The notes beneath the pieces were generated by a model. It was not told the origin of the DNA, ran no database searches, and saw only the letters and a program-made list of their open reading frames with translations. The translations under genes were made by a program, and so were the position numbers. From a virus, in the IMG/VR virus record IMGVR_UViG_3300025229_000001: DNA of 64,000 nt; one strand, given 5' to 3'. Below, one piece after another: positions 20,218 to 54,710 of this stretch. Numbering within the stretch: the stretch's first letter is position 1; each line of letters opens with the position of its first letter.

Positions 20218-20307
20218 CTCAATCCCTTTAACTGAGCCTTATGAGGTGCCACGGCAACCGGTAAGGTGCCGGCGTTCGGGTCGCGTCCCTAGCCGTGGCG
20301 TGAGGTG

Positions 20308-25075: not shown

Positions 25076-25170
25076 GATATTCCCTGTTAGTTAGTCCCTG
25101 TAATGGTGCCCGCGGAAGCACGACAGGGGGCGTGCGTGTCAGTTGCGCAACCTATCCGCGGGCTGACCGT

Positions 25171-50030: not shown

Positions 50031-51164
50031 CTACAACTCATGATTCACTGCTTCCGTTGTTCCGGTGAACTTCTTGTTCTCGCTCGTTGCGCCGAGCGGA
50101 GCGGTGTTCGTCGTATTTCTCAATCTATTTTTCAGTTCAAGTTGGCGTCTATTGCATTCTTCGATGTACGCGGACCTCGCTTCCTGCTCTGTTGCGAAAT
50201 AGCCAACGGTCTCGCGTCCGACCTTCACCTGGTAGGGCCGGGATTTGCACTTCTTCAAGTACGTCCATCCGCGACCACGGCCGAGGCCAAGGCCGGCCAA
50301 ATGGTCATACCCCTTCGCGGCCATCGTTACGGCTCGTTTAGCCGTGCGAATGCTAGCCGGAGTCTTGATATAGCTATCCTTCGAGTTCTGGCTCTGAGTG
50401 CAGATGTAGACATTCCCGACCGAGTACGATCCAACATCGCCGGTCCGCGCCATGACATAACCTTGTCCTCGACCGCGCTGCTCCCACTTGCCGGATTTCT
50501 GCCAGACCGCCCACCATTGCGGGAAGGTCAACGAGAACTCAATCCCTCGTTTGTCGCTGTTTCGCTTCTGGTGGACATAGGCCTTGGCAGCCTTGTTGGA
50601 CGTAAGCTGAACGCCTTTTCCAAGCAATGTTTCAAGGCCGGAATAAAGGCAGCCATAGACGCGCATGCAGCGTTCGTCACGGTTAGCCACGATTCGGAAT
50701 GTGCGGGCGGCCTTTTTAGCTTCCGCGCGAATCGACGAACCGCCATCAAATCTCGTCACGCCGCGTTTCGAGATGATCTGTCGGACACGCTCACGCGTGA
50801 CTCCGTGGATCTCGCCGATCTTTTCGAGACTCAAACCGGCCGAATAGGCATCGATCATTTGGCGGGCGCGGGATTCGGCGTCGGGCGATTGCATAGGGCC
50901 GCGCTTTCGCGTAGTCCCAGCCGCCTTGGAGGCCTTGTATATGGTCGCCGTGCACACGCCGTATTTGGCCGCAATCTGCTCAGTCGGCATTCCGGCGTTC
51001 CAATCGTCTGCGAACTTCTCGAAGGAGAACTTTTCGCGAGCCAGCGGACGACCGGCTTTACGCGCGCACTCAAAACAGCGCATGCGCCGACCATGACGAG
51101 GAACGGGCAGCGGTCCGCGACAATCAGCGCAGATTCCGGGCTCTGTAATGTTGAGGTAAGCCAT
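50031..51164 (-). CDS. Multidomain endonuclease: Zn ribbon, two HTH, HNH variant, AP2-like
   Basis: CADC..CFEC; EQIAAKYGV; EKIGEIHGVTRERVRQI; RGIEFSLTF.QWW...GNV...QN; VGYFATEQEARSAY. Confidence 0.75.
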   Translation of the reverse strand: MAYLNITEPGICADCRGPLPVPRHGRRMRCFECARKAGRPLAREKFSFEKFADDWNAGMPTEQIAAKYGVCTATIYKASKAAGTTRKRGPMQSPDAESRARQMIDAYSAGLSLEKIGEIHGVTRERVRQIISKRGVTRFDGGSSIRAEAKKAARTFRIVANRDERCMRVYGCLYSGLETLLGKGVQLTSNKAAKAYVHQKRNSDKRGIEFSLTFPQWWAVWQKSGKWEQRGRGQGYVMARTGDVGSYSVGNVYICTQSQNSKDSYIKTPASIRTAKRAVTMAAKGYDHLAGLGLGRGRGWTYLKKCKSRPYQVKVGRETVGYFATEQEARSAYIEECNRRQLELKNRLRNTTNTAPLGATSENKKFTGTTEAVNHEL

Positions 51165-51488: not shown

Positions 51489-51517
51489 AGCATAGATCAA
51501 AACGATGTGCGACTCAA
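51489..51517 (-). promoter_or_regulatory. pR promoter with operator in spacer
   Basis: TTGAGT-N17-TATGCT; ATC-N5-GAT palindromic core between the boxes, repeated near 51554. Confidence 0.7.
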
Positions 51518-51588
51518 GCTTTTTGCTTTGCTAAATCAAATCTTTTTGCACGTTGATCAAAATGATTGATCCAATCATCATTCGCACC

Positions 51589-52347
51589 ATGAAAACGGTG
51601 AAAGAGATCCGGTTAGAGAACGCGCGCGCGCTCGCACACGAGGGCCCGGCTGAGTTCGCGCGTCGAATAGACAGCAGCACTCAGCAGGTCAATCAGTTCA
51701 TGGGCCCGTCGCCAACTCGCAACATCGGTGACAAGCTGGCGCGCCGTATCGAGGCAGCGTTTGGCAAGCCAGAAGGGTGGCTTGATGTCGAGCACATAAC
51801 AGGCAGCACCGATGCATCAATCAGCGGAACAAGGTCGGCCGTACTCGAGAAATTGCTGCCAGAAGGAAGCGGTAACTTAGTCACATGGGAGACCCCGGAA
51901 GATCTCGAGCCCGACGACGACCGGGTGTGGATCGACCGTTATGACTATCGTTACTCAGCGGGGAATGGCGTGATTCAATGGGAAGTACGACAAAAAAAGG
52001 CGCTGCCGTTTGATATCGGTTTCTTCAAGGCCCTTGGTGTGCGCCCACAGGATTGCAGGTTGGCCCAGGTTCACGGTCGGAGCATGGAGCCGTATCTGTT
52101 CAATAAAGACATGATGATGATTTGCATGGCGAAGAACCGGGTGAAGGACGGTCTGATTTACGCCGTGACGTTTGAGGATGAACCGCTGGTGAAGCAGATC
52201 TTTAAGGAGCCGGAAGGCGCTCTGAGGCTGCATTCCTACAATCCAGAGTTTCCCGACAAGATCATCGCCGCGGACCAGCTGGAAGGGCTTCAGATCGCCG
52301 GAGAGGTTGTGTATCGATCCGGTTCAGGCTTGGCCGGCGGTAATTAA
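51589..52347 (+). CDS. cI: CI repressor (HTH plus S24 autopeptidase)
   Basis: AEFARRID...RNIGDKLARRIE; VHGRSMEP (Ser) and LVKQI (Lys). Confidence 0.93.
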   Translation: MKTVKEIRLENARALAHEGPAEFARRIDSSTQQVNQFMGPSPTRNIGDKLARRIEAAFGKPEGWLDVEHITGSTDASISGTRSAVLEKLLPEGSGNLVTWETPEDLEPDDDRVWIDRYDYRYSAGNGVIQWEVRQKKALPFDIGFFKALGVRPQDCRLAQVHGRSMEPYLFNKDMMMICMAKNRVKDGLIYAVTFEDEPLVKQIFKEPEGALRLHSYNPEFPDKIIAADQLEGLQIAGEVVYRSGSGLAGGN

Positions 52348-52420
52348 GACCGCTAAAAACCACAAATACGGGGTAGCCGATGGCGGTCGATCTGACTGAC
52401 CATCTTTGCAGCACTGAACG

Positions 52421-52447
52421 ACCCGGCCTCGGCCGGGTTTTTCATTT
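52421..52447 (+). terminator. cI terminator
   Basis: ACCCGGCC-TC-GGCCGGGT followed by T-tract. Confidence 0.75.
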
Positions 52448-52642
52448 CCGCCTCTGCTCGAAGCCCTCCCGCCATAACGTAGCACCGACCGACGTCAACA
52501 CGGCCAGGTCGTCTCCCCCGAATCTCTCCCAGTTCTGCGCAAGCCAGCCTGCGAAGCCGGCGCACGCGTAGTCAATCGGTACGTCTGCTCGGCCCTCGAC
52601 GTTCAATCGCTCGAAAACCGTTATCACGTCGTCTGCGGTCAT
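52442..52642 (-). CDS. Hypothetical protein in immunity region
   Basis: GAGG RBS; convergent with cI. Confidence 0.65.
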   Translation of the reverse strand: MTADDVITVFERLNVEGRADVPIDYACAGFAGWLAQNWERFGGDDLAVLTSVGATLWREGFEQRRK

Positions 52643-52692: not shown

Positions 52693-52805
52693 AGCAAATC
52701 TTTATGATCTATTGAAGCTATGCAGGCGATAGAAATAATTGTTCGCTCCGAGCAAATCTTTTTGCGACATAGCGCTTGGCAAAGCAAATCAAATTGATCT
52801 ATGAT
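52693..52805 (+). promoter_or_regulatory. OL operators and pL promoter
   Basis: AGCAAATC-N5-GATCT at 52693 and 52783, degenerate copy at 52751; TTGGCA(52776)-N18-TATGAT(52800). Confidence 0.7.
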
Positions 52806-52851: not shown

Positions 52852-53058
52852 ATGAGCCCGAACAACCTTAATGCATTCCGCGCGATTGACGAAGTCTTCG
52901 ACGGAACTTTCATGTTGACGTTTGGCGGCCCGCTCGACGCACCGGAGATGATTCCGAACGGCTCGATGGTCGCGCATGAATGCCACACGATCCTCGCCGG
53001 TTCAGCACTTCGCTTGGGCGCGCACAACAAACCGTGCATATCGTTCCAGGTGCGCTAA
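52852..53058 (+). CDS. First pL gene, hypothetical (68 aa)
   Basis: Purine-rich RBS before MSPNNL; stop abuts the ribozyme. Confidence 0.6.
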   Translation: MSPNNLNAFRAIDEVFDGTFMLTFGGPLDAPEMIPNGSMVAHECHTILAGSALRLGAHNKPCISFQVR

Positions 53059-53113
53059 CAGGTCGAAACCGCTTCGGCGGTCTGAGCGTAAGGCGCTCAC
53101 TGACGAGACCGTG
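53059..53113 (+). ncRNA. Hammerhead ribozyme, type II
   Basis: GGTC-GAAA-CCGC(TTCG)GCGG-TC|TGAGCG(TAAGG)CGCTCA-CTGACGA-GACC: full core, G10.1-C11.1 pair, GUC cleavage after 53082. Confidence 0.92.
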
Positions 53114-53363
53114 AATTACCCGCAGTAGAAGCACCCGCCCCGGCAGAGCCGGATCGCGGAACGCACATTAACAATCGAAGTTTGCGGCCTCCCTCGGGAC
53201 TCGCCGCACGGTCTGATCTAGTCGACCGATACGCAGCACAGACCAACCGCGCTAGGCCGATGTATGGCTACCGGATAGAAGTCTGATTGAAGGCTGCGAG
53301 ACGATCAAAACCACGCGGCAGCTGGAGCCGGCTAGGCCGGGAGTTGTCAGCGTCGCGTGGATA

Positions 53364-53497
53364 GCAGTTCTCAGTGTTGGCGGTTGGTAACACGCATAGA
53401 CCATCGAGCCTTGCGAACCCCGCGTGTCTGGCGAATCCGGCGCGGGCGGCGGAAGAAGATGAACTAGCTAGGCCCAGCCGCCAACACTGAGAACTGC
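53364..53497 (+). repeat. 24-bp inverted repeat (RNase III-type stem)
   Basis: 53364-53387 pairs with 53474-53497 with one G-U. Confidence 0.85.
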
Positions 53498-53500
53498 AAG

Positions 53501-53623
53501 CGTTTTTAGTGGAAGGGTAGCGCAGTGGTGATGCGCGCTGAAGTGCACAGGTGGTGCGGGCGGCGATGTAGTCGTAACCGTTCCAAGCCGGAAATTCACC
53601 CCCGGCGCCTTCCCCTAAAGACG
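53501..53623 (+). ncRNA. C4-like RNA, copy 2 (divergent)
   Basis: Closing stem CGTTTTTAGTGGAAGG/CCTTCCCCTAAAGACG; GCGC-AGTGGTGAT-GCGC and GCCGG-AAATTCACCC-CCGGC hairpins. Confidence 0.6.
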
Positions 53624-53714
53624 TTTCGAGTCCCCTAGCCGCGGCCGATTCGCTGAGTCGGCGGCGGTTAGCGGGCTCTTGAGAGATTAGGACAACTACT
53701 CGCTGGAGACATTC

Positions 53715-54029
53715 ATGAGCGAAAAATCGGCCATCAGATGCGAGACGCCGCGTTGCATCAACGACATAGCGAAGTACGGCCCGCAATACCACATGGTCTA
53801 CGACCGCAAGGAAGGCCAGTGCTGTGAGCGTTGCGGTGGAAAGTTCGACGGGGCCGCATGGCGCCATGCCTGCAAGCACTGTGAAACCGAAGTGCAACCC
53901 GGCGAGCTTGTTGGCCTGTTCGTGCCGCACTCGTGCAAGGCGTGTCACGAGAAAGTTGTCGCCGACCAAGTCAAACGCGGCGCGGTCTGCGGTGGATGCA
54001 AATCGGCCTTCGCACTTTGTTGCTGCTAG
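53715..54029 (+). CDS. Cys-rich multi-zinc-finger protein
   Basis: 14 Cys in 104 aa, CxxC pairs, CCC terminus; GGAG RBS. Confidence 0.75.
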   Translation: MSEKSAIRCETPRCINDIAKYGPQYHMVYDRKEGQCCERCGGKFDGAAWRHACKHCETEVQPGELVGLFVPHSCKACHEKVVADQVKRGAVCGGCKSAFALCCC

Positions 54030-54040
54030 AGGAGCCAATC

Positions 54041-54229
54041 ATGAACTGGCACCAAGACATGACCGTCATCGACGGCAGACTGTACGCGGGCGACAGGTGG
54101 CTGGGCAATTTCACCTCGCACTCTGCGGCGATGGCGGGGATTCAGATCATGCGCAACGGCGGCAGCGATGTTGCTCTCGCCGAGGATGACCGCGATCTTC
54201 TCGCGGCGATTGATGCGGACGAGGTTTGA
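54041..54229 (+). CDS. Hypothetical protein (62 aa)
   Basis: GAGGAG RBS before MNWHQD. Confidence 0.65.
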   Translation: MNWHQDMTVIDGRLYAGDRWLGNFTSHSAAMAGIQIMRNGGSDVALAEDDRDLLAAIDADEV

Positions 54230-54251
54230 GGATACTTGCTGGAGATTTGTG

Positions 54252-54710
54252 ATGCACAGAATACCGCTAACCAGAGGAATGTTTGCGCTGGTCGATGACG
54301 AAGACTTTGATGCTTTGTCCAAATACAAATGGTGTGTGAGCCACTTTGGCTATGCCGTGCGGAACGAAGGCAGCAAACAAGTTCGAATGCACCGTCAGAT
54401 CATGGGCGTGGATGACAGATGGATTTTGGTCGATCACGTCAACATGAACAGGACGGATAACAGAAGGAAAAACCTTCGCACGTGCACCCAAGCAGAGAAT
54501 CTGAGGAATCGACCATCCGCCAACAATAAGTCTGGTTACAAAGGTGTGACGCACTGCGCGAAAACAGACAGTTGGTGCGCAAAGATTGGCTACAAGGGCC
54601 GGTGTAAGAACCTCGGGTATTACGAAACGGCACAAGAGGCGCACGAGGTCTATTGCCTGTGGGCCGACATGCTTCACGGCGAATTCGCACATTACGGGGT
54701 GAAATCATGA
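54252..54710 (+). CDS. HNH-AP2 homing endonuclease
   Basis: VDHVNMNRTDNRRKNLR; SGYKGV...LGYYETAQEAH...HGEFA. Confidence 0.9.
   Translation: MHRIPLTRGMFALVDDEDFDALSKYKWCVSHFGYAVRNEGSKQVRMHRQIMGVDDRWILVDHVNMNRTDNRRKNLRTCTQAENLRNRPSANNKSGYKGVTHCAKTDSWCAKIGYKGRCKNLGYYETAQEAHEVYCLWADMLHGEFAHYGVKS

What the first reader, a model, noticed from the sequence alone, without database searches (positions are those of the whole stretch)
53059..53113. Hammerhead ribozyme immediately after the first gene of the pL operon
Seen: every conserved core nucleotide (CUGACGA, GAAA, GUC, G10.1-C11.1) and three clean stems; it begins right after the TAA at 53056-53058. Known: hammerheads self-cleave to leave 2',3'-cyclic phosphate and 5'-OH and have been reported in prophages with unclear function. 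Inference: it uncouples the first cistron, and the 5'-OH end may protect the downstream RNA array and early genes from RNase E, or mature a small RNA.
Basis: partly seen in the sequence, partly recalled or inferred. Interest (0 to 1): 0.85.

Follow-up and report, generated by a model that had tools for sequence, protein, structure and literature searches.

The report
Phage type II hammerhead ribozyme
The flagged bases are a genuine self-cutting hammerhead RNA placed two bases after the first gene of a phage early operon; it is a well-conserved example of a kind already known to be common in phages, and what it does there is still unproven.

Summary
Confirmed. Window 53061-53110 (+) is a canonical type II hammerhead with every core nucleotide and three helices; the predicted cut is after C53082.

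It is not chance. My descriptor finds one hit in the window and none in 200 resampled windows. A scan of IMG/VR with the core and stem II fixed gave at least 120 loci whose stems I and III covary (99.4% of cells paired). Orthologous loci whose upstream gene is near saturation at synonymous sites keep the ribozyme, with four compensatory stem I pairs.

Rfam 15 misses it and its sister copies. This subclass has a 4-bp GGUC/GACC stem II, a conserved A before it, a U-N-A-N-G loop on stem I, and no loop-tail pseudoknot.

Across the family the ribozyme starts -1 to +4 nt from an upstream stop codon (72%) and ends 10-40 nt before the next start (81%). This copy differs: about 600 nt of highly structured non-coding RNA follows.

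The lambda-pL-like setting is supported by a cI-like repressor, a terminator, three operator-like repeats, a promoter-like site and a RecE-like gene downstream.

Most likely it cuts the early transcript, separating the first cistron from the leader and early genes. Cleavage and its effect are untested.

This scan has already reported phage type II hammerheads on other DNA (123 notes, at least 101 genomes). It is a new member of a known kind.

The parts
52693..52805 (+). pL-like control region. Three operator-like 20-nt repeats (52693-52712, 52751-52770, 52783-52802) overlap a promoter-like site, TTGGCA-18-TATGAT, at 52776-52805.
   Evidence: The same repeat motif occurs at 51491-51554, in the gap upstream of the cI-like repressor gene.
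52852..53058 (+). ORF68, the first gene of the early operon. It encodes 68 aa of unknown function, has a GGAGAAGGGG ribosome-binding site, and ends with TAA at 53056-53058.
   Evidence: dN/dS is 0.05-0.12 against two orthologues. No Pfam, PHROG or Atlas hit.
53060..53060 (+). Conserved A immediately 5' of stem II.
   Evidence: A at this position in 119 of 120 family members.
53061..53064 (+). Stem II, 5' strand, GGUC (positions 11.4-11.1).
53065..53068 (+). Core G12 A13 A14 and A15.1.
53068..53081 (+). Stem III hairpin ACCGC-UUCG-GCGGU, including the A15.1-U16.1 pair.
   Evidence: The helix covaries across the family.
53082..53082 (+). C17. The predicted cut lies between 53082 and 53083.
   Evidence: Placed by the hammerhead numbering applied. 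Cleavage itself was not tested.
53083..53099 (+). Stem I hairpin: 6 bp closed by G53088-C53094, with loop U-A-A-G-G that fits the family's U-N-A-N-G.
   Evidence: Four compensatory pairs in orthologue L132.
53100..53106 (+). Core C3 U4 G5 A6 C7 G8 A9 (CUGACGA).
   Evidence: Position 7 is C in 38 and U in 82 of 120 family members.
53107..53110 (+). Stem II, 3' strand, GACC (positions 10.1-10.4).
53111..53159 (+). Conserved 3' tail, GUGAAU(U/C)ACC..CAGUAGA(A/G)G, plus a small hairpin. It travels with this ribozyme in relatives.
   Evidence: It is kept in the Paraburkholderia MAG locus L135, where the upstream gene is different.
53114..53714 (+). About 600 nt of structured, mosaic non-coding leader between the ribozyme and the next gene (ATG at 53715).
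   Evidence: Folding z-score -8.7. No gene called in near-identical contigs. Modules are swapped between relatives.

Best explanation
Window 53060-53111 encodes an active type II hammerhead ribozyme on the sense strand of a lambda-pL-like early transcript of a temperate phage.

As RNA polymerase passes, the motif folds and cuts itself after C53082. The cut leaves two products.
- Upstream product: a short message of about 270 nt for the 68-aa first gene. It ends 24 nt after the stop codon, with the G+C-rich UUCG stem III hairpin and a 2',3'-cyclic phosphate.
- Downstream product: it begins with a 5'-hydroxyl directly on the stem I hairpin. It carries the roughly 600-nt structured leader and the early genes (HNH, ACP-like, RecE-like and others).

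The cut physically uncouples the first cistron from the rest, so the two parts can have their own stability and translation. This works like the synthetic RiboJ insulator.

Shown here: the motif, its conservation and covariation, and its placement rules.

Inferred: cleavage in vivo and the protective effect of the new ends.

My odds are about 0.9 that it is a functional ribozyme and about 0.6-0.65 that insulation or processing of the operon RNA is its main role.
For: - Core and helices: complete catalytic core and three helices.
- Chance: 0 descriptor hits in 200 resampled windows.
- Family: at least 120 IMG/VR loci match a pattern that fixes only the core and stem II. Their unconstrained stems I and III pair in 99.4% of cells, with covariation score 0.62 against 0.11 in shuffles.
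- Orthologues: the 68-aa gene has pS 0.62-0.71 and dN/dS 0.05-0.12. The ribozyme core, stem II and tail are unchanged, and all four variable stem I pairs changed compensatorily in L132.
- Another relative: a contig from a sequencing run shows two further compensatory pairs.
- Placement across the family: the stop of a frame of at least 60 codons ends -1 to +4 nt from stem II in about 72% of 101 copies, against 0.4% for one such offset at random positions. The next ORF preceded by a Shine-Dalgarno-like motif starts 10-40 nt after the ribozyme in 70 of 86 copies.
- Flanking genes are small, with a median of about 92 aa. Those upstream of the ribozyme are mostly of unknown function.
- Strand and path: same strand as the operon; promoter-like site upstream; no predicted terminator in between.
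- Literature: clustered prophage hammerheads cleave in vitro and in E. coli (PMC3088659). Three Desulfovibrio type II hammerheads cleave in vivo (PMC8782182). Processing of polycistronic RNA is the suggested role (PMC6765202).
Against: - No cleavage data exist for this copy or this subclass.
- Rfam's Hammerhead_II model does not score it.
- The loop I to 3' tail pseudoknot, shown to be needed for fast cleavage in the published type II consensus, is absent. No loop-to-flank covariation was found. Activity at physiological Mg2+ would therefore rest on unproven contacts: U53089, A53091, G53093, A53060, G53111.
- Position +1 is G here, a minority variant (21 of 120).
- Near-isoenergetic alternative folds exist. 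CGGUC at 53078-53082 can pair with GACCG at 53107-53111. GACCGUG at 53107-53113 can pair with CACGGUC at 53210-53216.
- This copy is atypical in having no gene within 600 nt downstream, so the family's intercistronic logic may not transfer fully.
Confidence: 0.62

Rival explanations
1. The ribozyme's main job here is to make the 5' end of the downstream structured RNA leader. It would free a roughly 600-nt RNA-only regulatory array from the coding message, capped by 5'-OH and stem I. Separating two cistrons would be secondary.
For: - This copy is followed by 604 nt with no gene, and that stretch folds far better than shuffles (z -8.7).
- The ribozyme, its conserved tail and related downstream modules recur in a Paraburkholderia MAG behind a different upstream gene.
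- The scan's note e1-5335928 describes a similar hammerhead sitting before a structured RNA in other phages.
Against: - Phages that carry the conserved downstream module (phi644-2, QDWS, IMG/VR contigs) have no hammerhead of this subclass anywhere in the records searched.
- 81% of family members are followed directly by a gene.
- There is no second ribozyme or known processing signal to define a 3' end.
Confidence: 0.25
2. Cleavage is conditional. Either the ribosome terminating at TAA 53056-53058 or an alternative fold hides stem II or the core. The ribozyme would then act as a switch that links cutting to translation of ORF68 or to transcription of downstream sequence.
For: - The stop codon lies 2 nt from stem II, and family-wide it lies -1 to +4 nt away. 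A terminating ribosome would therefore cover the 5' half of the motif; this follows from the known size of the ribosome footprint.
- Competing pairings exist.
- A subset of the family has UCAG at +2..+6, which is complementary to CUGA of the core.
- Scan notes e1-5382503 and e1-5382490 report tail masking in another subclass.
Against: - Own tails pair no better with their own ribozymes than tails swapped between members do: -6.25 against -6.34 kcal/mol.
- There is no covariation between N2.1 and the tail's CAGN.
- The tail is conserved while stem I varies among the orthologues.
- Tight spacing is also expected from simple genome compaction.
Confidence: 0.1
3. The motif is a chance look-alike or an inactive relic with no present function.
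For: - Rfam models do not score it.
- The isolated fold is not unusually stable (z -1.56).
- The first-stage scan read very many windows, so rare chance matches are possible.
Against: - 0 hits in 200 resamples.
- All core positions are intact.
- It is conserved with compensatory changes beside a gene whose synonymous sites are near saturation.
- It matches family-specific features that were not part of any search pattern: A at -1 and the U-N-A-N-G loop.
Confidence: 0.03

Closest known systems
Type II hammerhead ribozymes clustered among prophage and phage genes (Perreault et al. 2011, PMC3088659; Rfam RF02276)
   Same: Same catalytic core. Same permutation, with stems I and III capped and stem II open. 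Same phage setting between small genes on the sense strand. Examples from Agrobacterium, Azorhizobium and Clostridium were shown to cleave.
   Different: The published consensus uses a pseudoknot between loop I and the 3' tail, and often a stem II of only 1-2 bp. This subclass has a fixed 4-bp GGUC/GACC stem II, a conserved A before it, a U-N-A-N-G loop and no detectable pseudoknot. RF02276 does not score it or its sister copies. Only one copy occurs in this phage, and non-coding RNA follows it.
Desulfovibrio vulgaris type II hammerheads, shown active in vivo by cyPhyRNA-seq (PMC8782182)
   Same: Type II topology, near phage-like genes. The expected products carry a 2',3'-cyclic phosphate and a 5'-OH.
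   Different: Those are 68-70 nt and fit the Rfam model, with a 39-nt 3' fragment that includes the tail. This one is 50 nt. No RNA-end data exist for it.
RiboJ-type synthetic ribozyme insulators (sTRSV hammerhead placed in 5' UTRs; from my own knowledge of Lou et al. 2012)
   Same: What it would work like: self-cleavage removes upstream RNA context and leaves a 5'-OH with a hairpin ahead of the downstream RNA.
   Different: RiboJ is engineered and type III-derived, and it sits just before a ribosome-binding site. Here the element is natural and type II, and in this copy it precedes a long non-coding leader.
Lambda pL leader processing and N/nut antitermination (textbook knowledge)
   Same: The position matches: the first gene after an operator-controlled early promoter, downstream of cI and in the same orientation, followed by recombination genes.
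   Different: No N-like protein or nut site was recognised. Processing would be by RNA self-cleavage rather than by RNase III.

Membership tests
Hammerhead ribozyme | Core C3 U4 G5 A6 N7 G8 A9 | tested here: met
   CUGACGA at 53100-53106.
Hammerhead ribozyme | Core G12 A13 A14 | tested here: met
   GAA at 53065-53067.
Hammerhead ribozyme | A15.1-U16.1 pair and a non-G at position 17 (NUH cleavage triplet) | tested here: met
   A53068-U53081; triplet G53080 U53081 C53082.
Hammerhead ribozyme | Three helices around the core, supported by covariation | tested here: met
   Stems I and III pair in 99.4% of cells, with 257 cells changed on both sides against 73.5 in shuffles. Stem II was fixed by the search pattern, so it is uninformative. 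Compensatory changes occur in orthologues.
Hammerhead ribozyme | Site-specific self-cleavage that yields a 2',3'-cyclic phosphate and a 5'-OH | not testable with these tools
   The only RNA run holding part of the region does not cover the ribozyme, and it is held as contigs.
Type II hammerhead (Perreault 2011 consensus; Rfam RF02276) | Stems I and III closed by loops, stem II open | tested here: met
   The order is 11.x strand, GAAA, hairpin III, C17, hairpin I, CUGANGA, 10.x strand.
Type II hammerhead (Perreault 2011 consensus; Rfam RF02276) | Pseudoknot between loop I and the tail 3' of stem II (present in the majority of published type II examples) | tested here: not met
   No mutual information between loop I and either flank in 128 members: at most 0.15 bit, against 1.3-1.7 bit for the stem pairs. 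The 4-bp GUAA/UUAC possibility in the window is not kept in the orthologues.
Type II hammerhead (Perreault 2011 consensus; Rfam RF02276) | Score at or above the RF02276 gathering threshold (37 bits) | tested here: not met
   No hit at the site at E<=10. No hit in six loci that together hold about 20 sister copies. I read this as a sensitivity limit of the model, not as evidence against the fold.
Lambda-like pL early operon | Repressor gene upstream in the same orientation, shared operators on both sides of it, a promoter, and recombination genes downstream | tested here: met
Lambda-like pL early operon | N-type antiterminator as the first gene, with nut sites | tested here: inconclusive
   ORF68 has no family hit and no arginine-rich N-terminus. 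No search for nut sites was made.

The most novel reading that the evidence does not exclude
In this phage lineage the hammerhead is the front-end cutter of a modular, freely recombining early-leader RNA array. The array includes an RNA module of about 160 nt that is absent from Rfam and shared with Burkholderia and Shewanella phages. The 5'-OH with the stem I cap would be what lets this RNA-only regulatory leader persist, while the first gene's message decays on its own schedule. A further step: the conserved halves of such ribozymes may serve as junctions where small phage gene or RNA cassettes are exchanged.
Probability: 0.2. Interest if true: 0.6.

Novelty: new member of a known kind. Interest (0 to 1): 0.3.

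Why it matters
The biological role of bacterial and phage hammerheads is still open (PMC6765202).

This copy offers a clean single-ribozyme test case. It sits in a defined, operator-controlled early operon, directly after a conserved small gene and directly before a long structured leader. One point mutation could therefore show what cleavage does to the two halves of the transcript and to the phage.

The family-level regularities may be useful to annotators. They are start at the stop codon, end just before the next ribosome-binding site, no pseudoknot, and invisibility to Rfam's model. They suggest that many phage hammerheads go unannotated.

The presence of a hammerhead in a phage is not new in itself.

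Tried and rejected
- Rfam scans of the window, of the local 2 kb at E<=10, of three related loci and of six sister loci gave no hammerhead hit. RF02276 on the whole phage record hit only two unrelated weak sites.
- A weak RAGATH-16 match over 53059-53125 (21.2 bits against a cut-off of 65.6; E 0.62) was judged chance.
- BLAST of the ribozyme plus tail against cultured phages gave no match.
- A protein-guided search of GTDB genomes for ORF68 found no relatives.
- Sequencing runs: five root-metagenome DNA runs hold the stretch but are possible sources of this DNA. The one RNA run covers only 53497-53671, as a contig in another context. Nothing can be said about expression or cleavage of the ribozyme.
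- Loop I to tail pseudoknot: no covariation.
- The 3' tail masking the core (idea from earlier scan notes): own tails are no better than swapped tails, and there is no N2.1/CAGN covariation.
- A second ribozyme that could make a circular or unit-length RNA: none found by descriptor or covariance model in the window or the whole record.
- The Rfam C4 model on the whole record gave no hit at E<=10, so the scan's 'C4-like' label for 53501-53623 is not backed by that model.
- tRNA scan: none in the window.
- The Atlas look-up for ORF68 was uninformative.
- A mini-ORF reading of the tail (GUG AAU UAC CCG CAG UAG) is not conserved in the orthologues and was rejected.

Full report
**What is there**

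The sequence reads UAA(53056-58)-C-A-GGUC-GAAA-CCGC-UUCG-GCGG-U-C-UGAGCGU-AAG-GCGCUCA-CUGACGA-GACC-GUG. In hammerhead numbering:
- Stem II: 53061-64 pairs with 53107-10, with G10.1-C11.1 as G53107-C53064.
- G12 A13 A14: 53065-67.
- Stem III: 53068-53081, including A15.1-U16.1.
- C17: 53082.
- Stem I: 53083-53099.
- C3-A9: 53100-53106.

This is the type II permutation, in which stem II is open. The free-energy fold of the isolated stretch gives exactly these three helices.

**Is it more than chance?**

A descriptor for type II hammerheads found one hit on both strands of the window and none in 200 Markov-resampled windows.

Rfam 15 gave no hammerhead hit, at gathering score or at E<=10, so I looked for relatives directly. 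In these loci the unconstrained segments form stems I and III almost without exception. On a 64-sequence alignment, 99.4% of cells pair and 257 cells changed on both sides, against 73.5 in shuffles. The covariation score is 0.62 against 0.11, and sliding the partners by 1-3 columns destroys the signal. A covariance model built from that alignment scores the window site at 68.4 bits, with the next best at 11.1 bits. It is the only copy in the 68.5-kb phage record.

**Orthologous evidence**

The 68-aa gene upstream has two homologues, at 74% and 69% identity. Synonymous sites between them are near saturation (pS 0.62-0.71) and dN/dS is 0.05-0.12, so it is a real gene and the loci are well diverged. 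All of these loci carry the hammerhead at the same place.
- In L132 the core, stem II, stem III and tail are identical to the window. The four variable pairs of stem I are all replaced compensatorily: UGAG/CUCA becomes AUCA/UGAU.
- L126 has a third stem I, CACA/UGUG. It also has a 34-nt insertion in stem III and a C-A mismatch at positions 15.2/16.2.
- A related prophage seen in a sequencing run shows two more compensatory pairs and one A-G mismatch.

**A subclass that Rfam misses**

Features that were not part of my pattern are nearly invariant:
- A immediately 5' of stem II: 119 of 120.
- A or G immediately 3' of stem II: 110 of 120. The window has the minority G.
- A 17-nt stem I made of 6 bp plus a loop U-N-A-N-G, with U in 110 of 111, A in 80 of 111 and G in 91 of 111.

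The published type II consensus relies on a pseudoknot between loop I and the 3' tail (PMC3088659). Here there is no mutual information between the loop and either flank. [quoted passage not shown] Rfam also finds none of about 20 sister copies in six other loci.

**Placement rules**

In 101 family copies, the stop codon of a frame of at least 60 codons ends -1 to +4 nt from the first G of stem II in about 72%. The conserved A often serves as part of the stop codon. In 70 of 86 copies, the next ORF preceded by a Shine-Dalgarno-like motif starts 10-40 nt after the ribozyme. The 3' flank is A-rich.

The flanking genes are small, with a median of about 92 aa. Among the 92 upstream genes scanned, 17 PHROG families matched and only one carries a function name.

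The family is therefore a compact intercistronic element, as described for prophage hammerhead clusters in PMC3088659. Earlier follow-ups in this scan reported it repeatedly on other DNA (123 notes in at least 101 genomes). I re-derived the spacing rules independently here.

**This copy's setting**

The window lies in a complete 68.5-kb IMG/VR phage record. Near-identical prophages sit in 140-740 kb bacterial contigs from root metagenomes. The nearest genome hit for the ribozyme plus tail is a Paraburkholderia MAG. The model hits 2 of 121 genomes sampled from that family.

The local order of features is:
- a cI-like repressor at 51553-52347 (+);
- a terminator-like hairpin at 52420-52449;
- three operator-like repeats, whose motif recurs upstream of the repressor gene;
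- a promoter-like site at 52776-52805;
- ORF68;
- the ribozyme;
- about 600 nt with no gene;
- an ORF at 53715, then HNH, ACP-like and RecE-like genes.

The analogy to lambda pL is therefore sound, although no N-like function was recognised.

**The downstream RNA**

The stretch 53114-53714 folds with z -8.7 and is mosaic between relatives. A tail of about 25 nt after the ribozyme is conserved, even where the upstream gene differs.

A module of about 160 nt (roughly 53139-53305, core CGCGCUAGGCCGAUG..GGCUACCGG) is shared with Burkholderia phages phi644-2, E192a and PL1, with Shewanella phage QDWS, and with seven IMG/VR contigs. In the annotated phage records examined, phi644-2 and QDWS, it lies in an unannotated gap. 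Its outer helix covaries. It has no Rfam match. Those phages lack this hammerhead, so the module does not depend on it.

**Mechanism**

The best reading is that the ribozyme cuts the early transcript 24 nt after the ORF68 stop codon.
- The 5' product ends in a stable UUCG hairpin with a cyclic phosphate. This end is a poor substrate for 3' exonucleases and for polyadenylation.
- The 3' product starts with a 5'-OH on a hairpin. Such an end cannot be converted to the 5'-monophosphate that stimulates RNase E.

These consequences follow from established RNA-decay biochemistry and were not shown here.

The rivals are not mutually exclusive. They are 5'-end maturation of the leader RNA, conditional cleavage, and a chance motif or relic.

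I tested the idea from earlier scan notes that the 3' tail masks the catalytic core. In this subclass own tails pair no better than swapped tails, and there is no covariation. Two competing pairings specific to this copy do exist.

**Verdict**

This is a real, well-conserved type II hammerhead, and a new member of a known kind. The functional inference is reasonable but untested, and the interest is moderate to low.

Noticed in passing
window 53139-53305 (+); also L004:2401-2580, L005:2488-2667, L136-L142: A conserved structured RNA module of about 160 nt, core CGCGCUAGGCCGAUG(N1-3)GGCUACCGG. It is shared with Burkholderia phages phi644-2, E192a and PL1, Shewanella phage QDWS and seven IMG/VR contigs, and in phi644-2 and QDWS it lies in an unannotated gap. 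Its outer helix covaries (GCAGC/GCUGC, AUCAGG/CCUGAU, GCCAAC/GUUGGC). It has no Rfam match.
   Followed up: partly
window 53111-53159 (+): The tail after the ribozyme, GUGAAU(U/C)ACC..CAGUAGA(A/G)G plus a small hairpin, is conserved in relatives while stem I varies. It is kept behind a different upstream gene in a Paraburkholderia MAG (L135). Its role is unknown.
   Followed up: partly
window 53364-53497 (+): A 24-bp, 96% complementary inverted repeat encloses 86 nt and is followed by GCGUUUUUAG. It could be a very long hairpin or a terminator-like element inside the leader.
   Followed up: no
window 53628-53671 (+): A long hairpin (CUAGCCGCGGCCGAUUCGCUGAGUCGGCGGCGGUUAG) is kept unchanged across mosaic variants of the leader. 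Several relatives diverge immediately after 53671.
   Followed up: no
window 52693-52802 and 51491-51554: Operator-like 20-nt repeats (AGCAAATC-N5-GATCTAT type) occur three times before the early promoter and again in the gap upstream of the cI-like repressor gene. The layout resembles lambda OL/OR.
   Followed up: partly
window 20236-20299 (-) and 25096-25162 (-): Two int-alpA RNA motifs (Rfam RF02996; 44.7 and 42.0 bits, both above the gathering score) lie just upstream of minus-strand genes.
   Followed up: no
window 54168-54710 (+) and 50031-51164 (-): Two HNH/AP2-type, homing-endonuclease-like genes flank the immunity region. The 377-aa one abuts a 96-aa ORF that matches only the C-terminal part of a repressor family.
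   Followed up: no
window 53501-53623 (+): The scan's 'C4-like RNA' label is not backed by Rfam's C4 model. There is no hit in the whole phage record at E<=10.
   Followed up: partly
L122, L108, L023, L087 (IMG/VR contigs): Arrays of 3-8 hammerheads of this subclass occur at spacings of about 300-500 nt, each behind a small ORF. None is detected by Rfam at gathering score.
   Followed up: partly
L126/L127/L129, region after the ORF68 homologue: This orthologue of the ribozyme carries a 34-nt insertion in stem III that looks like a local duplication of GGGAGU. It also has an AUC cleavage triplet with a C-A mismatch at 15.2/16.2, so it may be a weakened or variant copy.
   Followed up: no
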